Shown here in pieces: positions 2,041-62,846 of a DNA stretch of 64,000 nucleotides. The notes beneath the pieces are model-generated. The model saw nothing but the letters and a program-made list of their open reading frames with translations, did no database searches and was not told the origin of the DNA. The position numbers were made by a program, and so were the translations under genes. Where the stretch lies: the NCBI GenBank assembly GCA_964016885.1, contig OZ024748.1:52762001-52826000 (forward strand). The letters are read 5' to 3'. Every line of letters begins with the position of its first letter. Position 1 is the first letter of the stretch. The stretch comes from Eledone cirrhosa. Its lineage: Eukaryota.

Positions 2041-2649
2041 CAAGGCCAGCCCCAAAATATGGGGAAAGGTATCTAGAACTAATCAAGAAACCCTAGGATC
2101 TAGGATTATCTTGACTTCCAAAGGCAAGTGCGTTTCACCAGTCAGGCCCTGTACCAGACTTTCATGCTCATTAGGAGTCTTCAGAACATTCAGGGGGCAA
2201 GAGGGGATGGAATCTTATAGAACAAGGAATTTATTTCAGGACGTTTTTTTCATAAACTTTATTCTCTAAATCTAAGGATACTCCATTTAAAAGTGAGATG
2301 TGGAAGTATAATCTAGAGCCTCTCTCTCCAACCCTGGGGCAAGCCTGACTCCAACTGTGTTCTCTGAACTACAGGTTCACATTGAGAGTAGGTCAAAAGG
2401 GAAGATGTCTGTTTTCTGTCCTTTCTATTTAGTTAACCATACAATTGCTTGCACTATAACCACCAGACAGAAAAAAACATTTGCCTTTTTCACTGCCAAA
2501 ACAAGGCATAAGAGTGAATTAATGCTTTCCTTTTCATACTTATAATGAAATACGTATAATCCAATAAATATAATACATATTGACTATACAGTATGTATAG
2601 AAATACATGTGAGTCCCAAGTTCAGTGAGAGGAAACTATAGTTAGTAAG

Positions 2650-2942
<293 letters not shown>

Positions 2943-12530: not shown

Positions 12531-13082
12531 ATAAAGACCATAATGCAAATTCACGCTTCTGCCAATTTACTGTCCTAATAATAATCTAAACTATAATCAA
12601 GTAAGGAGTGTGGAACTGCGTCCATAATATATTTTTTTTATCCTGTTTGTAAAATAAGTTGGATTACTTTGAATAAATAATTAATGAATTTTAGGATTTA
12701 GGACTGAACTCTGTTGATATTTCGCTCCGTCGATTTTGACTGCGCAGACCTTCTTGAATTTTTTCAGAAATAACACATGGTTACTGTGCATGATATTTTG
12801 CTAATGCATTAACTCCTCACAGGGTGTAGTAATGAAACTGTACAGTCTGGAGCATTCTTTGTGCTCCCACACAAATTCGTTTATCCACTATATAACATAT
12901 TGTGTCTACTCTGATATACAAATTCTTATTTACAAAATACGATTTTAGTACAATTATTGGATGAGTGGTTAATGGCAATCCTAGATGAAAACTAATTGTC
13001 TGGTTCATTATAATTATTGTACACACACACACACATATATATATATATGTATAGTTATGTAATAAACAACATAAGGCAATTA

Positions 13083-13144
13083 TTTCATTTACCAGCGGTT
13101 TCTTAAAAGCAAAAAAAAATTTGCTTTCAATCATCAGAATGAAA
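13083..13144 (-). ncRNA. Type I hammerhead ribozyme
   Basis: Minus strand: tttcatt-CTGATGA-ttgaaagcaaa/tttgcttttaa (helix II)-GAAA-cc gct gg-TA-aatgaaa; helix I 7 bp, GUA cleavage triplet. Confidence 0.88.
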
Positions 13145-13175
13145 AAATCCTGGTGTATTTATTGACGTTGGATTT

Positions 13176-13238
13176 TTTCATTCTGATGATTGAAAGCAAA
13201 ATTTTTTTTTGCTTTTAAGAAACCACTGGTAAATGAAA
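13176..13238 (+). ncRNA. Type I hammerhead ribozyme
   Basis: tttcatt-CTGATGA(13183-13189)-ttgaaagcaaaa/ttttgcttttaa-GAAA(13219-13222)-cc act gg-TA-aatgaaa; predicted cleavage after 13231. Confidence 0.88.
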
Positions 13239-13499
13239 TAATTGCCTTATGTTGTTTATTACATAACTATTAAGCTCTGTTACCTACATAGAGCACTCTT
13301 TTTCCTGGACTTTTCCGACGGAATTACTTCATTCACATATATACACACATATATATATATATATATATATACAATATTGGAAAAAAATCAAGGAAATAAA
13401 ATTAATAAATAGAATTTCATATTCTTGGTTTTTTTTTTCTAAGGATGTCATGAAAACCAAATTGAAGATAGCGAGTTTGGCTTTTACATCTACCTCCCT

Positions 13500-20169: not shown

Positions 20170-20295
20170 AATAATAAATTTGAAGACTAAAATCCAAAGA
20201 GGGCTCGATAAGGATAAATATATATAAAATATATAAGAACCGCAGAGCAAATATTTATTAAAATAACAGATTAAAGTTTAATCAAAGAATCGCTA
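20170..20295. repeat. Dispersed repeat (Penelope-like terminal fragment family), also at 22025-22236, 23071-23146 and 46867-46960
   Basis: Shared gaagactaaaatcc.aagag.gctcgataagg and aaatatttattaaaataacagattaaagttt. Confidence 0.7.
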
Positions 20296-22022: not shown

Positions 22023-22259
22023 TAATAATAATAAATGTGAAGACTAAAATCCGAAGAGGGCTCGATAAGGTTATCATCATCATCATCATTTTACGTCCGC
22101 TTTTCCCTGCTTAAGTTTATAAAAACCATAGAGCAAATATTTATTAAAATAACAGATTAAAGTTTAAGCAAAGAATTGCTGCTGGTGAAAGCAGCAATTC
22201 TTTGCTTAAACTTTAATCTGTTATTTTAATAAATATATGTATATATATATATAGAGAGA

Positions 22260-23070
22260 AAAATCCAGCGTCCACATACTTCCTTCACAAAACTGATATC
22301 AAGAAGTCCTCTTGTGAACATGACCTGGGCATTACTGTCAGCAGTGATTTGCGTTGGACAAAGCATGTCTCTAAGATTGTCAAGAAGGCCGAGGGTGTCT
22401 TGGCATCACTCAGCAAGGCCTTTGTTAGCCGCTCTCTAGCTATCTATTTAAAGCGGTATACAGCTATGGTACGACCACACTTGGAATTCGCATCATCAGT
22501 CTGGAACCCCTATCTTGCTCAGAACATTGACCTCCTGGAAACTGTTCAGAGACGTGCAACCAAGCGCATACCCTCCATCAGACACCTACCATACTCTGAA
22601 CGCCTTGCTTCCCTGGGCATAGATTCATTGAAGCTTCGACGTCTGGCAATGGACTTGGTAAACACCCACAAAGTTATTAACCATCTCGCCAACAACAACC
22701 CTGAGCACCTTTTTGATCTCCATGTGTCTAACACACGTGGACATGCCTACAAAATCAGAAAACAGCACAGCTCACATGACTTTCGGAAACATTTTTTCAC
22801 GCTCAGAGTTGCTGAAGCATGGAACAAACTGCCTGCGTCAGTTGTTAGCTGCCGAGACACTGCATCTTTTAAAACCCTCATGCTTCCCGAAATACGCCCA
22901 AACTACATCCGATGTACCCCTTCCATACACATGCAAACATGTGTATATCATGACTCATGCACTGTTCATTTTCCTGACGTTTGTACATTACCCTATGTAC
23001 TATACATACACTTTTTGATGAGTTGTTGTGCACCTGAGCACTGTACACAATATTTCATTATTATTATTAT
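22260..23070 (+). mobile_element. 5'-truncated CR1-clade LINE (ORF2 C-terminus, 3' UTR, (ATT)n tail)
   Basis: HDLGITVSSDLRW...YTAMVRPHLEFASSVWNPY...LETVQRRATKRI...PYSERL..L...LKLRRL...TRGH...FFTLRVAEAWNKLP, diagnostic of CR1. Confidence 0.92.
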
Positions 23071-23330
23071 AATTGCTGCTGGTGAAAGCAGCGATCCTTT
23101 GCTTAAACTTTAATCTGTTATTTTAATAAATATATGTATATATATACTTGGTTGTTACTGATCTGTTCAGCTCGCTTGACTGCTTGTATATCATAAGAAT
23201 CCTGCATCTCTTATGCCTTTTGTTTGATGGGAACATGTTTTGGATTATGTTATACATAAGACTTCCATCTTCGAAATATGTATAATAAAAATAAATAGAG
23301 ATGATCTAAAGTAACTATCTTTCGTTTATT

Positions 23331-25944: not shown

Positions 25945-25975
<31 letters not shown>

Positions 25976-26060
25976 CGGTAAACAAAAAACAGACAAATGC
26001 ACCAGTAAATGTTATAAATACTATTAGTTTCATGCTTAGTGAGAGTGGGGGCGGGGGTTG

Positions 26061-26090
26061 CGACGTTTCGGGCATAAGCCCTTCATCAGG
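26061..26090 (-). ncRNA. Minimal hammerhead motif of Penelope-like type
   Basis: Minus strand: c-CTGATGA-a-gggc ttat gccc-GAAA-cg-TC; helix I poorly paired. Confidence 0.6.
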
Positions 26091-26123
26091 AGAGTGGTGG
26101 GAGGAACTCCTAGAAGGAGTGAG

Positions 26124-26184
<61 letters not shown>

Positions 26185-26362
26185 TATATGTATATATACA
26201 TTAATTAGATATAAATGAGGAAGTTTGGTTTACATGTATACACAATAAATATCTTATACATGTACACAAAACTTCCTCATTTTTTTCTAATATATACACT
26301 CTACCTGCGCATAGAGTGCTTGCTTTGGTACGAACACCAGTAATTTACTGAATCACCTACAC

Positions 26363-26910: not shown

Positions 26911-27019
26911 TAATAATAATAATAATAATAATGATTTCATTTATTCGCCACAAGGGCCAGGGTGAAACACCATATTGACAAGGAGAAGGCTAGCTCAATG
27001 TGGAGAGAGAGAGAGAGAG

Positions 27020-27650
27020 AGGAGACTGTGGCTCACATTGTATCCGAGTGTAAACACCTAGCCCAGACTCACTATAAAGACTGGAGACATGATGTGATGG
27101 GCAGGGTGATCCACTGGCACCTATGCAAAGTAAACAATTTACCACATTCTGAGAAGTGGTATGAGCATAGGCCAGAGTCGGTGATAGAAAACGATCAGGT
27201 GAAGGTGCTACGGGATTTTAGGATACAGACGGACAAGAAACTGGAACACAATAGACCTGACCTGGTGGGTGTGGACAAGGAAAAAAGATCGTGCCTGGTT
27301 GTGGATGTGGCCTGCCCATTTGACACGAGAGTGCAAGAAAAGGAGAGGGAGAAAATTAACCGATAACAGGACTTAAAGTGGGAGGTAAAAAGGATTTGGA
27401 ACTGCCATGAAGTCAGAGTCGTCCCGATTCTCATAGGCGCACTAGGTACTATCTCAAAGAGTTTCCAAGGATGGTTAAAGCAAGTTAGTCCAGCCCCGCT
27501 TTATGGAACACTTCAAAAGGCATGCTTGCTGGGAACAGCAAGAACCCTCCGATACGTCCTGAATATCTGAGGAAGCTGCCAGGTAGCGCCTTGATATTCA
27601 TTTCAACAAACTTTCCAGTTAAATAACATCAATGACTGAAACTCAAAGAA
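27020..27650 (+). mobile_element. 5'-truncated R4/Dong-clade non-LTR element (CCHC knuckle remnant plus restriction-like endonuclease), with premature stop
   Basis: ETVAHIVSEC...YKDWRHD...IHWHLC...WYEHRPESVIEN...DFRIQTD...NRPDLV...DVACP.D...EKEREK..R*QDLKWEV...VVPILIGALG...LQKACLLGTARTLR; followed by (TAA)n. Confidence 0.9.
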
Positions 27651-32192: not shown

Positions 32193-32412
32193 TCATCATC
32201 GTCATCGTTTAATGTCCATTTTCTGCATTACCATGGGTAGGAGGGGCTGTCATTTTGTGAGAGATCAGGTCAGAGGTCCTTGTTTCGCACATGAAGGACA
32301 GATTTTGGGTTCGCTTCTATAGCTGGATGTCCTTCTTAATGCCAAAATTGGTATATATATATATATATTAAGAAAGTAAAACAAAGAAGCCTTCAATACA
32401 TCAAAAGTCTTT

Positions 32413-32457
32413 ATTAGCCGACAATGTTTCATCCTATAAAGGACTCATCAGGGCAAT
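32413..32457 (-). ncRNA. Type I hammerhead ribozyme (solo)
   Basis: Minus strand: attgcc-CTGATGA-gtcct ttat aggat-GAAA-c att g-TC-ggctaat; GUC cleavage triplet, all three helices pairable. Confidence 0.88.
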
Positions 32458-35319: not shown

Positions 35320-35890
35320 TGACCCAACCATATCATTTCAGTCTCCCCCCCCCCTCTCCAATCAATTTTATCATTCGTCAACACATGACCAAACCATTCC
35401 ATTCCATTTCTATCACTCCACTCCCTCAGACACTTTCATCAGACCCCAACACACAACCCAACTGTTCCATTCCATTTCCATCACTTCTTTCACCCAGACA
35501 ATTTCATCAGTCCCCAACACATGACCCAACAGTTCCATTCCATTTCTATCACTTCTTTCACCCAGACAATTTCAGCAGTCCCCAACACATGACCCAACAG
35601 TTCCATTCCATTTCTATCACTTCTTTCACCCAGACAATTTCAGCAGTCCCCAACACATGACCCAACAGTTCCATTCCATTTCTATCACTTCTTTCACCCA
35701 GACAATTTCAGCAGTCCCCAACACATGACCCAACAGTTCCATTCCATTTCTATCACTTCTTTCACCCAGACAATTTCATCAGACCCCAACACATGACCCA
35801 ACAGTTCCATTCCATTTCTATCACTTCTTTCACCCAGACAATTTCAGCAGTCCCCAACACATGACCCAACAGTTCCATTCCATTTCCATC
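35320..35890. repeat. 68-bp minisatellite
   Basis: atgacccaacagttccattccatttc at 35521, 35589, 35657, 35725, 35793 and 35861, plus diverged upstream units. Confidence 0.92.
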
Positions 35891-37432: not shown

Positions 37433-37651
37433 TATATATATATATATATATATATATAAACACATGTATATAAATACATATATATACACATATATATACA
37501 TATATACATACATATATATACACATATATATATACATACATATATATATATACACAAACATATATACACACACATATATATACACACACACATATACACA
37601 TATACTCACATATATACACACATATATATACACACACACATATACACATAT

Positions 37652-37750
<99 letters not shown>

Positions 37751-37773
37751 CATATATATATATATGTATACAC

Positions 37774-37884
<111 letters not shown>

Positions 37885-38047
37885 TATATATATACACATA
37901 CATATATATATACACATACATATATATACACAGACATATATATATATATACACACATACATATATATATATATACACATACATATATATACACACATGCA
38001 TATATATATATACATACATGTGTGTATATATATATATATTGTGTGTG

Positions 38048-38080
<33 letters not shown>

Positions 38081-38237
38081 GTATGTATATATATATATGT
38101 ATATATATATGTATGTATATATATATGTATGTATATATATATATATATGTATGTACGTTATTCCGGGTTGAATCGGAGGTAACCACAGTAAGTAAGGTAC
38201 TCAATACATAGCAGAGTATAATAGTTTTAATATAGAT

Positions 38238-38288
38238 GAGATTCTACAGGACTAGAACTGTTTCATTCATTAGAAATCATCAGGAATC
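38238..38288 (-). ncRNA. Type I hammerhead ribozyme
   Basis: Minus strand: gattc-CTGATGA-tttctaatgaat-GAAA-cag ttctagtc ctg-TA-gaatc. Confidence 0.8.
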
Positions 38289-38289
38289 A

Positions 38290-38342
38290 GAGATTCCTGA
38301 TGATTTCTAATGAATGAAACAGTTCTAGTCCTGTAGAATCTC
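38290..38342 (+). ncRNA. Type I hammerhead ribozyme
   Basis: gagattc-CTGATGA(38297-38303)-tttctaatgaat-GAAA(38316-38319)-cag ttctagtc ctg-TA-gaatctc; helix I 7 bp, helix III 4 bp, weak helix II. Confidence 0.82.
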
Positions 38343-38521
38343 ATCTATATTAAAACTATATATGTATGTATATATATATGTATGTATATATATATATATA
38401 TGTATGTATATATACATGTATATATATATGTATGTATATATATATATGTATGTATATATGTATATATATATATACATACATATATATATACATACATATA
38501 TATATGCATACATATATATAT

Positions 38522-38584
<63 letters not shown>

Positions 38585-38658
38585 CATATATATATATACA
38601 TACATATATATATACATATATATACATACATATATATATATATACACACACACACACC

Positions 38659-38690
<32 letters not shown>

Positions 38691-38712
38691 TATATATATA
38701 TATATACACACA

Positions 38713-38791
<79 letters not shown>

Positions 38792-38799
38792 GTATACAC

Positions 38800-38833
<34 letters not shown>

Positions 38834-39699
38834 GTATACACATATATATATATATACATAAATATATATGAGGGTGAAGTTATAGTTCACTTGAAGCATT
38901 GTGTAATGAGGTATAAACGTTTGAATTTGTAAAGCCAAACAATGCAGGTATGGACATAGGATAAAAAAAAAAAATGCAAATGCAAAAGATATTGTTGCCA
39001 AGCTATTTAGCTTGCCAAGCTATTTAGAACACTGGTCTAACCACTTTACTTCCCTCCGAAGAAGAGATATTATCTCTAAAATTAAGGACATTTAAATAAA
39101 TCTAAGGTAAAAGACTAATTGTCAACAATATCTTTTGCATTTGCATTTTTTTTTTTATCCTATGTCCATACCTGCATTGTTTGGCTTTACAAATTCAAAC
39201 ATTAATACATATATATGTATGTATATATATATATATGTATATATATAAATCAGGATAGAACTTGTTTAAAATTAGTTAGACTATTATTTAACAGAGTACT
39301 CAATACTTGGTGTAGCAGAGTATGGCTATGTTATATACAATAGTATATATAGAGTAATGTGACTGCTAAAGGGTTAAAATATCCAAGAAACAAGCACATT
39401 ACCAGGTGTTATCCTAGATGGGGGTGAGGTAAGATAGGGGTCTTCAGAATATTTGTGTTGGGCACTCATTTGCAAGGAACGTATTTCAGGACGTTTTTTT
39501 ATGAACCCTATTTTCTGTACATGAGAAAGCACCATTGAAATGTAGGGGTGGAAAAGGCGGTAGTTCCATACAGCACTACCTCACCCACCTGAATTCCTTG
39601 GAAACAAACCTACCAAAGAACTTCCCCTGAGATGCAAGCTTGTAGTAGACCAGCTAATCCTGTATAGGTAAGAACCATAGATTTCATTTCATTTTCAAA

Positions 39700-54625: not shown

Positions 54626-54750
54626 TATATTTTTTCAATGTGGTCTACCCTTCATGGTAGGGTCCATACCATAGATAGAACTCGAGTAATCTATAGAAAG
54701 GTTCTGTGTTCCGCTGGGTTAATTTCTTAGATACAGAGTCTGATATGAGA

Positions 54751-55112
54751 TATTAAATTAACAATTGAAAATAATAACAACAAAGTCAAGTTATTTTACC
54801 GACTCATATCATTGTTTAACGATTGTTTCGAAGGGTTGATCATATTGACAGATCTATAGCAGTTATATAACTGTATAGTATCAGACTTCATATATAGGTT
54901 CGATTCAAAGCTCATATATAGGTTCAATCAGACTCTCTTCGTCCGAAGAAGACAGTCTGATTCAACTTATATATCCAGTCTGATAGTATACAGTAATATA
55001 ACTGCTATAGATCTGTCAATATGATCAACCATCTGAAACGCTCATAAAACAATGATATGAATAGGTAAAATAATTTGACTTTGTTGTTATTATTTTCATT
55101 GTTAAATTAATA
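54751..55112. repeat. Long imperfect palindrome (arms about 170-190 bp)
   Basis: Arms pair from tattaaattaacaat...gatcatattgacagatctatagcagttata to the centre tcttcg-tc-cgaaga. Confidence 0.85.
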
Positions 55113-57359
55113 CCTAATATATATATATATATATAAGTTTTGATGATTTAGTGTTAAAAATAAAACCTAATGATAAAATAAAAATATATTTTAAAAATGA
55201 GGCCCCTGGGGCTTTGTTGCCCAAAGCTATAGCTTCTTTAGCTTATAGGTAAATTATTTCTCATCAAGTTGGTGTTTGGAACATAGCTTAACAAAGAGTT
55301 CTTACAGAAAATTCTAATGAAAACTTTCAACTTAAATCTAGATGCTTTAAAATAAATTTGCTTTCTTAAAACAAAGAACAGTTTCAGGTGGGTTGGTATC
55401 AAAAGAATTAATAAACTAACATTTAGTACATGTGTTTCTAATCCAATCCAGGGCCTTCACACGTTTGTTGGAGGAACCCTTCCCTGGTTGACCTCCACTG
55501 CTTTCTAATTTGGTTTTGGTCATGTCAGAGGTTTAGCTGTACTCACCACATTTGGCTAATTGTGTGTTGGTGAGGCTATTTAACCCATGGTTGGAGTGGA
55601 TAGTTGTCAACTCCGAGGAGTTGATGCACCTTTTAACAACTCTTGTTTTGGTTTTGTGTTTTTGTTGCAAGGTTTCTACGTACCCTCCTCACCAGATCAG
55701 GGTCTGTTGAGGGAGTCAGTTTAGTCACTGACCACTTGACTATGAAGCAGGTTGTACTGGTTACAAAGAAGCCTGACCTGAGGAATTCATCTTGACTAAA
55801 CCAGACTAAGGTCTGGTGGGGGAGCTGGTTTAGTCACCAACCACTAGACCTGAAGCAGGTTGTACCGTGTTGCATGTTACCAGTAGCAGGCAGAAGCCTG
55901 ATTAGACTTTGATCATGGTCATGTCAGATGTGTTTATCAATGTCAAATGAGTGTTTTGATATCACTGTGGATTTATGTCCTGAGGTTGTCTTGAAGTGTT
56001 TTGTTAAATAAAGATCCTGTGATAATTCTCTGTCATTTATCTGCCATTGTGTTTCAAGGCTTTTGTGAATATTTGTGATTTTATTTTACCATCTTTGTTT
56101 AAGGTTTAACCTCTTAGAAAGAAAGAGGGTGAAAGAAACAGAGACTGGGAGAGATAAAAAAAAAAACAGACTAAGAGAGAGAGAGTGAGAGAAAGGGTAA
56201 GATAGAGATAGTGAGAAAGAGAGTGAGATAAACAGAGATTAAGAAAAGGAGATGTGAGAGAGAGCAAGAGAAAGAGAGCGAGATAAACTGAGATTAAGAT
56301 AAACTGAGAAAGAGAGAGAGGGAAAGAAAGAGAGAGAGAGCTCTTTCTGGTTTACATAGCAATTGTCCTGGAGTTTACAGCTTTTTATTGCTTCACATAT
56401 CTGTGTGTATTTATACATGTATGTGAGTGTATATATATATACATACATTAAATTAGATTTCAAACTATTGTATCATCATCAACTGATTTATATACTGATT
56501 AAGTAGTGAAAGACAGGTTGTTTGTTTTATTCAACTTTGTCCATGTTTTATTTTTGTTATTGTCTTCGCTCACCCTACCCTCTCACCCTACCCCTCTCCT
56601 CCACCCTCCACCCTTCTTTCTTCATCTTCATCTCCACTCATCTAAATCTATCTATAGCCAAAAGGCAGCAATGTTAACTATTTTTCTTCCATTCTTCTTT
56701 CTATATTTCCTATGGTTTTTCTTTACTATCTCATCATCATTATTTCTTAACTTGCCTCATTAAAATCATTAGTAAACACATTAGCCACCATAAAACCAAA
56801 TTAGTTTTCATCATCACACGAAACTTAATTTTAAATTGTTTTATGTTCTTTTTATTTATTTATTTATTTATTTATTTATATATTTTTTTAATTCTTTGTT
56901 TTTTTTATTTGTATTTTAGAAAAAACTTGTTTTATTTATTTTTATTTTTTTTAAATTTATTTCTAAAAAAAATTGTTTTGTTTTTTTTGCATGTGTAAAA
57001 AAAATGTTTTATTTATTTATTTATTTGTGTATTTGCTGATTTTTTTGTTTGTATGTTTATGTTTGCTTACTTGTTGTTTCGCACCAAGCATCATATGAGC
57101 TGTAACTCAATGCAATTGTGTGCATCAAGTTTGATTAAGCAGAAATGAATTAAAATTAAATGAGTAGAGAAATTATATAAAAACAAGATAAAACAACTAA
57201 AACAAGCATATACATACATACACACACATGTATATGTATATATTATACACATATATATATATACACAGTGTATATATATATATAACAGATATAATATAAA
57301 TAGAATATAAAAACTAAAGACAAGAAAACAGAAACATATATATAAGTACATATATGTGT

Positions 57360-61420: not shown

Positions 61421-62565
61421 TCATCATCATCATCGTTTAACGTCCGTGTTCCATGCTTGCATGGGTTTGGACGGGAGTTTTCCCACTTGAGGCAAGAGTG
61501 GTTGTCTTGCTCGCATAGGACTGTCTGGCGGGTTTTCTACGGGCTGGATGCCCTTCGTAACACCAACCACATTACAGTGTGGAACTGGGAGGTTTTTACC
61601 GTGTTGCCTACACGCCACATTACAGCGTGGACTGTGTGTTTTTTTGTTTGTGACACCTACACGACCTCATTTGTTTCGGCCTGGATGTTGTGGGGACCAA
61701 CATAACTTTACATGAAAGGGGTGGTTTGGATGGGGTGGAGGTAGTGGGACGGGGGTGTATTTTGTTAGAGATGCCTACTGACTGTAGTAAAGTTTCACTT
61801 TGCACTTAGGTAAGGCGGGTCTTCTCTATTACTGTGTAGCGCCAAAGGTCTCGGTCCAGTGACAACGTCTTGGAGAGGTGTAAGTGTGTGAGATCGGAAT
61901 TTATCAAGTCGTCCCAGGTTTTTCTCGGTCTGCTACTCCGTGGCTACCGTCTATTTTTATTGCCCTGCACTTTTTTATACAGCTGTCGTCTTTCATGCGC
62001 ATCACGTGACCATACCAACGTAGCCTTCTCTCGAGTAAACAACATCTGATCCTCTTATTCTAATTTCTCCCTTAGTTCGTTATGCTTTGCCGTTCACATA
62101 TATTACTATTACACATCCAGCGGAGCATGCAAGCTTCGTTCCTCTCTAGTCTGCGTATATCCTCTGCACACAATGCCCAGGTCTCACTGCCATGTAACAT
62201 TGCTGTTCGTATGCAGGCATCATACAGCCTGCTTTTCATTTTTAGGGAGAACCCTTTAGCGGCCAATAGTGGTATAAGCTCTCTGAACTTTTCCATCCAG
62301 TTCTGACTCTAGCTACTGTACTTTCAGAGCACCCTCCCCCACTGCTGATTTTGTCACCCAGGTAACGTAAGCTGTCCACTATTTCTATAGAACCATCTGT
62401 GCAATGGAATGAGTTAGTATTCTTTGGCACTTGCTGCCACTTATTGCACCAGAGCACTGTCCACATATAAAATCTATATTCTTAGTTAGCTTACCTGTGA
62501 TCCCACTACATCTTTTATGTACCCATACTTTGCATTTGGAACATAAAATGGAGTTTCTATCTATA
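61421..62565 (-). mobile_element. 5'-truncated, frameshifted RTE LINE
   Basis: NSILCSKCKVWVHKRCSGI...; EIVDSLRYLGDKISSGGGC..S..ARVRTGW; KFREL.PLL...RLYDACIRTAMLHGSETW...LERNEACMLRWMC; 3' UTR and (GAT)n tail. Confidence 0.92.
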
Positions 62566-62846
62566 CAAGTGTCTTGCTCAAGGAAACAACACATCACCCG
62601 GTCTGAGTGATGTGTTGTTTCTTTGAGCAAGACAGTTTATTTCACATTGCTCAATTTACTCTATATATATATATATACATTGAAATCTACCTATTTATGG
62701 TAGGACTAACTATGTTAGAATTCCATGCAGTTTTGAAGAGATAATTTCTATCAGATCATGCCCGTGAGAACTATAATTTTTGTAGTAGGTTTCAGCACAC
62801 AAGCTTCCATCAAAGATTCTATTGAGCTACAGAGCTACAGCTATAT

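What the first reader, a model, noticed from the sequence alone, without database searches (positions are those of the whole stretch)
38221..38359. Second, unrelated-sequence inverted hammerhead pair in a perfect 68-bp-arm hairpin
Seen: arms 38221-38288 and 38292-38359 with a 3-nt loop. Each arm encodes gattc-CUGAUGA-uuucuaaugaau-GAAA-cag(uucuaguc)cug-UA-gaauc. The helix sequences differ completely from the 13.1-kb pair but the divergent twin-ribozyme architecture is identical, and the inversion point sits at the foot of helix I. Helix II is weak (U-U then 3 bp), and loop III contains a CUAG palindrome that could allow dimerisation, as described for minimal metazoan hammerheads. Inference: at least two independent families generate the same structure, implying a common integration mechanism.
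Basis: partly seen in the sequence, partly recalled or inferred. Interest (0 to 1): 0.8.

Follow-up and report, generated by a model that had tools for sequence, protein, structure and literature searches.

The report
Head-to-head Penelope retroelement stump
This 139-base mirror-image sequence, each half carrying a predicted self-cutting RNA motif, is one copy of a very abundant animal repeat and is most likely the stump of a Penelope-type jumping gene pasted in head-to-head, an already described and ordinary layout.

Summary
The hairpin is real: exact 68-bp arms, 3-nt loop, and an intact type I hammerhead core on each strand.

It is one copy of a high-copy repeat: 11,516 contigs were laid in one run, and a second copy lies at 2608-2785. 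The unit sits in (TA)n, has a 65-bp tail on one side only, and family copies end at two recurrent 3' sites. That is the published footprint of endonuclease-positive Penelope-like elements (PLEs). No PLE ORF was linked, so pLTR versus non-coding partner is open.

Across read copies the core is conserved and loop II varies freely.

- The turning point is not fixed. The foot of helix I recurs, but other copies turn elsewhere.
- The 13-kb pair is not wholly unrelated. It shares a bulged stem just past the short end.
- The two ribozymes never lie in sense on one RNA, and the antisense arm would be made first and trap the motif.

Possible extra: the turn may mark the RNA's 5' end (TATA-like word at -30). 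The exact junction of this locus was not seen in reads. Verdict: ordinary.

The parts
38221..38288 (-). Left arm: 5'-truncated copy of the element's hammerhead end (long arm, continues into the tail); helix I only 5 bp; predicted cut between 38245 and 38244
38289..38291 (.). Head-to-head junction (AGA). A38291 belongs to the family sequence; 38289-38290 are likely junction-added letters
   Evidence: family upstream letters and junction variants
38292..38359 (+). Right arm: second copy, ending at the inner (short) family terminus against (TA)n
   Evidence: reads abutting (TA)n at the mirror site 38221 (34 contigs in X1, 381 reads in X15)
38290..38342 (+). Predicted type I hammerhead: helix I 38290-96/38336-42, core 38297-303, helix II 38304-15 (U.U plus 3 bp), GAAA 38316-19, helix III 38319-34, predicted cut after 38335
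   Evidence: core conservation; not matched by Rfam
38156..38220 (-). One-sided 65-bp tail between the inner and outer family termini
   Evidence: shared with the 2.6-kb copy, p = 0.001; reads abut (TA)n near 38158-38166
38199..38217 (-). Bulged stem (4 bp, 3-bp inner hairpin, 2-nt bulge) starting 3 nt past the short-arm end; candidate reverse-transcription start signal
   Evidence: function inferred
37500..38155 (.). Left (TA)n/(CA)n microsatellite target (it continues left of the stretch read)
38360..38869 (.). Right (TA)n microsatellite; a 14-bp target duplication is possible but not diagnostic (the word occurs 8 times in the flanks)
2608..2785 (.). Second, older copy of the same family: arms 2678-2722/2741-2785 (4 mismatches, 18-nt spacer), same tail, broken core, different turning point
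13051..13336 (.). The 13-kb pair: another family with the same architecture (inverted hammerhead arms, 66-bp one-sided tail with the bulged stem, (TA)n flanks)

Best explanation
The hairpin is one copy of a high-copy repeat with a one-sided tail in a (TA)n site, and is most likely a single insertion made by Penelope-like element (PLE) machinery, leaving two short copies of the element's predicted hammerhead end joined head to head. Inferred steps: a GIY-YIG endonuclease nicks both strands of (TA)n. The reverse transcriptase copies one RNA molecule from two fixed internal start sites 65 nt apart, giving a 69-nt and a 134-nt cDNA. Both run off or stop at the foot of helix I, likely the RNA's 5' end, and are joined there. 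The extra 65 nt of the longer cDNA are the tail. The copy is a non-coding stump. A read-through transcript would make the antisense arm first and form a 68-bp duplex that is predicted to trap the ribozyme. Within this reading I put two-sided priming at about 0.6 and fold-back self-priming at about 0.35. Whether the template was an autonomous PLE's pLTR (Hydra-like) or a non-coding partner (retrozyme-like) is open.
For: SHOWN HERE. High copy number: 11,516 contigs in X1, 415 in X4, 7,237 raw reads in X15; 1,154 contigs in X2, 1,766 and 1,970 raw reads in X16 and X17. A second window copy has the same inner and outer ends and tail. Read ends abut (TA)n at both termini (table 7). Seven tailed palindromes lie in the window, judged by eye; 4 of 7 carry the bulged stem 3-6 nt past the short-arm end. 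In the complete 13-row variant table (5% share, 88% likeness), 9 rows are in loop II or its mirror, 3 at the junction and 1 in the core (G12 to A, 79 of 1,320 and 65 of 1,478 reads). Helix I A38293-U38339 changes to C-G at the family level, and both changes lie on one contig in X10, record 11, by my reading of tables 3, 7 and 8. Both arms share the minority loop II letter T38311 (at most 13-14% of X16/X17 reads, at most 30% of X2 depth), which points to one template. Head-to-head junctions appear in raw reads of other samples (X15: 29 and 19 reads at two joints; X17: 40 reads at helix I). KNOWN. Inverted 5'-truncated pLTR, 30-40-bp tail, (TA)n bias (PMC8557442). Palindromes at head-to-head junctions (PMC3846280). 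Two internal RT starts that define the tail, with both strands cut and extended (PMC11167929). Dual hammerheads on opposite strands 100-700 bp apart (PMC4209133).
Against: No RT or GIY-YIG ORF was linked: 0 of 120 window ORFs scanned (of 165 candidates) hit such a Pfam family, and no genome is held. The tail is 65 bp, against 30-40 bp in the papers. The target duplication is not diagnostic. Rfam hammerhead models do not match. The motif lacks the G10.1-C11.1 pair and the unpaired 9.1 base typical of PLE min-HHRs (PMC4209133). Helix II and III pair probabilities are only 0.12-0.17 and 0.27-0.32. The likeness filter biases toward conserved copies. No listed contig reproduces this exact junction: the 8 listed X2 pieces and X4 record 13 cross the centre with 0-5 substitutions and 1-6 gaps, and none has 31 letters on both sides. 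Joints at 80% likeness with short sides can be false. Four short family motifs were absent from the supplement of PMC8557442.
Confidence: 0.87

Rival explanations
1. A hairpin MITE (DNA transposon derivative) that moves as a whole palindrome and happens to contain a hammerhead.
For: Short, non-coding, perfect inverted repeat in a TA context; the junction at helix I recurs at high depth (2 letters left out at 38289: 8 contigs in X1, 6 in X2).
Against: The unit is asymmetric (65-bp tail). Turning points differ between copies. Single arms joined to non-palindromic upstream sequence dominate (747 and 801 reads). Head-to-tail partial tandems also occur (38288 to 38227, 46 reads).
Confidence: 0.04
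2. A palindromic assembly or library artefact at this locus.
For: The arms are 100% identical, and no listed contig gives the exact junction with 31 letters on each side. X1 and X2 hold 12 of 12 sampled words but may be the source sample.
Against: The same family forms an aged palindrome at 2.7 kb with 4 arm mismatches and another centre. The arms stop at the family's recurrent termini, not at random places. Head-to-head joints occur in raw reads of other samples.
Confidence: 0.04
3. A selected regulatory device: a bidirectional ribozyme pair or a dsRNA/small-RNA hairpin that serves the host.
For: Intact cores in both arms and a very stable hairpin.
Against: The cores are intact because the copy is young (68 of 68 identical). 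The older copy at 2.7 kb has lost its core. Only one motif can be in sense on any transcript, and forcing its active fold costs about 78 kcal/mol against the duplex (-32.4 versus -110.4).
Confidence: 0.03
4. The palindrome arose after insertion, by recombination or repair at a solo hammerhead copy.
For: The arms share a minority allele, which any single-template process would give.
Against: The short arm ends at the same site as many other family copies abutting (TA)n and 3 nt before the bulged stem, as in other families. Random repair would not predict this.
Confidence: 0.02

Closest known systems
Insertion units of endonuclease-positive Penelope-like elements with inverted 5'-truncated pLTR and one-sided tail (PMC8557442 passages and Fig. 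2 legend; PMC3846280 passages)
   Same: Head-to-head inverted copies, palindrome at the junction, tail on one arm only, microsatellite target, hammerhead in the repeat.
   Different: No ORF-bearing copy is attached; the tail is 65 bp rather than 30-40 bp; the target duplication cannot be read in (TA)n.
Hydra clade of C-terminal EN+ PLEs (PMC8557442, section 11)
   Same: Canonical-order hammerhead and (TA)n insertion; reported from molluscs among other aquatic invertebrates.
   Different: The clade is defined by protein motifs that could not be tested; four family motifs were not found in the paper's supplement.
Poseidon_Ac of Anolis carolinensis (PMC11167929, parts 1-2 of 4 read)
   Same: Two internal RT start sites bound the tail; both strands are cut and extended at AT-rich DNA; insertions run through an uncut hammerhead.
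   Different: There the ORF starts at stem II; here every ATG in or near the core meets a stop within a few codons (sequence).
Minimal hammerheads of metazoan PLEs (PMC4209133, parts 1-2 of 4 read)
   Same: Type I topology, dispersed truncated copies, pairs on opposite strands, palindromic word in loop III.
   Different: Here helix III is well formed (4 bp with an 8-nt loop) and helix II is short with U.U at its base, the reverse of the min-HHR pattern.
Metazoan non-LTR retrozymes, axolotl HHR_Amex2 (PMC7229834 passages; bioRxiv 10.64898/2026.07.22.740005, part 1 of 5)
   Same: Type I hammerhead with a U.U mismatch at the base of helix II and a more stable helix III; non-coding; proposed to be PLE-mobilised.
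   Different: Retrozymes are tandem arrays of 170-400-nt units with circular RNAs; only a short partial tandem was seen here, and no RNA data.

Membership tests
EN+ Penelope-like element insertion | ORF with telomerase-like RT and GIY-YIG endonuclease | tested here: inconclusive
   None in 120 of 165 window ORFs; no genome held; collection scans gave only two chance hits. A stump is not expected to carry one.
EN+ Penelope-like element insertion | Inverted 5'-truncated copy head to head | tested here: met
   variable junctions.
EN+ Penelope-like element insertion | Tail extension on one arm, between two recurrent 3' ends | tested here: met
   65 bp here and about 70 bp at 2.6 kb; both ends abut (TA)n in reads. 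Longer than the published 30-40 bp.
EN+ Penelope-like element insertion | Head-to-tail partial tandems (pLTR) | tested here: met
   Joint 38288 to 38227, 46 reads from 9 starts in X15; back-joints to 38291 in X16 and X17.
EN+ Penelope-like element insertion | (TA)n target or target-site duplication | tested here: inconclusive
   (TA)n target met; the candidate 14-bp duplication occurs 8 times in the flanks.
Type I hammerhead ribozyme | Core C3-A9, G12-A15.1, U16.1 and H17 around three helices | tested here: met
   conserved in reads except G12 to A at 4-6% in two runs.
Type I hammerhead ribozyme | Match to an Rfam hammerhead model | tested here: not met
   No hammerhead family at E<=10.
Type I hammerhead ribozyme | Covariation in the helices | tested here: inconclusive
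   One helix I pair, A-U to C-G, mostly unphased and phased in one contig; helices II and III show no listed variation.
Type I hammerhead ribozyme | Self-cleavage after A38335 | not testable with these tools
   Needs an assay; no RNA holder listed.
PLE minimal hammerhead (min-HHR) | Absent or 1-2-bp helix III, long helix II, unpaired 9.1 base, G10.1-C11.1 | tested here: not met
   4-bp helix III, 3-bp helix II, U.U at its base (versus PMC4209133).
Non-LTR retrozyme | Tandem array of 170-400-nt hammerhead units; circular RNA | not testable with these tools
Hydra clade PLE | DKT motif, no CCHH, CxCX5C linker | not testable with these tools
   No protein; supplement search negative.
MITE | Symmetric terminal inverted repeats, fixed structure across copies | tested here: not met
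   One-sided tail; variable centres; solo and tandem arms.

The most novel reading that the evidence does not exclude
The turning point at the foot of helix I is the capped 5' end of the element's RNA. Family reads show a TATA-like word 30 bases upstream of A38291, and A38291 fits an initiator pattern (recalled consensus). Junction variants fit both arms running to A38291 with one extra G or C between them, as a reverse-transcribed cap would leave. The hairpin would then be two complete run-off cDNAs from one uncut RNA, started just before bulged stems shared across families. Junction maps of these stumps would read out the RNA start, the RT start signal and the joining step of Penelope-type retrotransposition directly from genomes.
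Probability: 0.3. Interest if true: 0.5.

Novelty: new member of a known kind. Interest (0 to 1): 0.2.

Why it matters
As a locus it matters little: it is a young, non-coding stump of a repeat class that covers 6.83% of an annotated octopus genome (PMC13282606 supplement). As a family it is useful material for an open question, how Penelope-like elements build their inverted ends. Thousands of short copies with two fixed 3' ends and countable junctions can tell two-sided priming from fold-back priming and show whether the RNA is used cut or uncut.

Tried and rejected
- Whole genome: none held, so there is no genome-wide copy map and no upstream extension.
- Rfam: only hairpin-type chance matches below gathering scores, and no hammerhead.
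- Pattern scans: 0 hits in metagenomes with the first pattern. The second pattern gave 1 hit in metagenomes, 1 in prokaryote genomes and 0 in viral contigs. L001 and L002 match only the 27-29 pattern letters and lack helix III, so both were rejected as chance.
- Pfam scan of 120 of 165 ORFs: no RT or GIY-YIG.
- No RNA holder listed; this says nothing on expression.
- Target-site duplication is not diagnostic.
- The bacterial promoter scan is irrelevant and was empty.
- A pair count on alignment A1 was not obtained; with four rows, two of them identical arms, it would say little.
- Tail relatedness: besides the two within-family pairs (p = 0.001), only 3 of 19 pairs reached p<0.05.
- A 3' splice site (T-tract plus CAG) is an alternative to a start site at helix I. 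It is weakened by A38291G variants (18 contigs in X2) but not excluded.
- Cleaved RNA as the main template: only 1 of the 12 arm-joining joints shown has an end at the predicted cut site.
- Look-ups in earlier findings by place, sequence and relatives found nothing.
- Literature searches. None turned up a description of this family. 'Penelope-like + twin priming + inverted' gave 2 papers that looked off-topic from the listing. Subscription papers and Repbase are not covered.

Full report
OBSERVATION. The arms 38221-38288 and 38292-38359 are exact reverse complements with an AGA loop. The hairpin folds at -110.4 kcal/mol with z = -26.8. Helix I is 7 bp on the plus strand and 5 bp on the minus strand. 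My descriptor finds 5 motifs in the window against at most 1 in 200 block shuffles. Rfam hammerhead models do not match. The active monomer fold (-8.2) is close to the minimum (-8.5), but helices II and III are weakly populated, and a single arm is no more stable than shuffles. A homodimer is predicted at -27.0 against twice -8.5, so dimer pairing is possible but not required.

SURROUNDINGS. The unit is larger than the hairpin. A 65-bp unpaired extension (38156-38220) continues the left arm, and the whole lies in (TA)n. A second copy at 2608-2785 has the same extension and the same two outer ends, 4 mismatches between its arms, a broken core and a turning point inside the core/helix II. By eye, seven tailed palindromes lie in the window (2.6, 13, 22, 26.2, 38, 39 and 54.8 kb). 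In 4 of 7, a bulged stem starts 3-6 nt past the short-arm end, with pair changes between families (6 descriptor hits, 1 of 300 shuffles reaches 6; one hit is the opposite strand of another, one lies elsewhere). The 38-kb and 13-kb tails align at p = 0.003 among 21 pairs, about 0.06 after correction. That the host is an octopus is my recall of its repeats plus earlier AI notes; no call established it.

FAMILY DATA. The stretch is a very high-copy repeat: 11,516 contigs in X1, 415 in X4, 7,237 raw reads in X15 and 4 contigs in another organism; depth is not copy number. Reads abut (TA)n both at the inner end (mirror 38221) and near the outer end. In one search (71 bases, 88% likeness, 5% share) all 13 variant rows were shown: 9 in loop II or its mirror, 3 at the junction, 1 in the core. 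In one search, none of the 40 rows shown (of 85) fell in the core, helix III or loop III. Helix I shows an A-U to C-G change, phased on one contig of X10. Both arms carry the minority letter T38311, so one template is likely (RAD reads sample few loci).

JUNCTIONS. Of 84 joints, 15 were shown. Twelve join the two arms at other centres, with right-arm starts at 38291-94 (3), 38305 (1), 38312-13 (7) and 38319 (1). The 38312-13 cluster may partly reflect alignments breaking at the variable loop, and short-sided joints at 80% likeness can be false. Junctions at the foot of helix I recur: a form 2 letters shorter (8 and 6 contigs), single-letter variants at 38289 and 38290 (11 and 8 contigs), and 40 raw reads in X17 whose loose letters are the mirror arm. 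The exact junction of this locus is not among the listed pieces, and none meets the 31-letter bridging rule. An artefact is therefore unlikely but not formally excluded for this one site.

MECHANISM. Shown: structure, family membership, two recurrent 3' ends, variable centres, shared alleles. Inferred: nicking of (TA)n, reverse transcription of one RNA from two internal starts (69 and 134 nt from A38291), and joining of the two cDNA ends. This follows the in vitro result for Poseidon_Ac, where two internal starts define the tail, both strands are extended and uncut RNA is the main substrate (PMC11167929, parts 1-2 of 4). Fold-back self-priming, proposed in PMC3846280 (passages), remains a live variant. 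The majority letters upstream of A38291 in 747 and 801 raw reads show TATAAA at -30 (agreement 0.69 and 0.78), and one X4 contig confirms positions -28 to -24. This suggests that the RNA starts there. The same stretch also reads as a 3' splice site, as in Drosophila Penelope, where the intron end maps to helix I (PMC4209133), and the contig consensus of X1 and X2 does not show the TATA word. A read-through RNA would make the antisense arm first, and forcing the active fold costs about 78 kcal/mol, so this copy is predicted to be a silent ribozyme.

COMPARISON. Inverted truncated pLTRs, tails and (TA)n bias are described in PMC8557442 (passages, section 11, supplement search) and PMC8969392 (passages). 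Dual hammerheads on opposite strands are in PMC4209133 (parts 1-2 of 4). A U.U-closed helix II is known from axolotl HHR_Amex2 (PMC7229834 passages). Retrozymes as PLE derivatives are argued in bioRxiv 10.64898/2026.07.22.740005 (part 1 of 5; supplements of preprints are closed). PMC2377424 (passages) reports a TATA-less internal promoter for Drosophila Penelope, which differs from the TATA-like reading here, while PMC3846280 reports a putative TATA box and initiator in a rotifer pLTR. PMC13282606 (passages and supplement search) lists 190 Penelope-like families in Octopus vulgaris and does not mention hammerheads. The element works like an EN+ PLE insertion and meets the structural features; the defining ORF could not be linked, and it fails the min-HHR and MITE tests. 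In this genome 349 of 495 earlier notes fit the words hammerhead and Penelope; these are unchecked AI notes and are not counted as support.

VERDICT. A real, young and ordinary stump of a known insertion type, in a family I found no description of in six searches. New member of a known kind; interest 0.2.

Noticed in passing
window 38870-39208: A neighbouring inverted pair (63-bp arms 38911-38973/39146-39208, 172-bp spacer, 41-bp one-sided tail, (TA)n flanks) with a hammerhead-like core variant CCGAAGA and a damaged GAAA in the spacer.
   Followed up: partly
window 22075-22236, 20185-20294, 23071-23146: A third repeat family with a perfect 47-bp hairpin at 22137-22236 and two solo arms; a CCGAAGA-type word lies further out; no bulged stem by my descriptor.
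   Followed up: partly
window 26204-26361: Tailed palindrome without a hammerhead, carrying the same bulged stem 6 nt past the short end.
   Followed up: partly
window 54690-55116: Long imperfect palindrome (135-bp arms, 15 mismatches) with a CCGAAGA word near its centre, a tail on the left and (TA)n on the right.
   Followed up: no
window 25973-26124 (-), 32366-32457 (-), 2184 (-): Solo hammerhead-like motifs. The 26-kb one has the classic min-HHR form; the 32-kb one also starts right at helix I, next to (TA)n.
   Followed up: partly
window 38323-38330: Loop III with its CUAG palindrome shows no listed variants while loop II is hypervariable; two loose-end variants change it, so the constraint is not absolute.
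   Followed up: partly
window 62388-62636 (-): An 83-aa frame with a PHD-finger match (E = 4e-6, just under the curated cut-off), probably a host exon.
   Followed up: no
window 22217-23110 (+), 26935-27363 (+): Frames that look by recall like C-terminal fragments of CR1/L2-type and R2/R4-type LINE proteins; no Pfam match.
   Followed up: no
window 35400-35850: A 68-bp tandem repeat containing CUGAUGA...GAAA on the minus strand; it did not pass the helix I/III test.
   Followed up: partly
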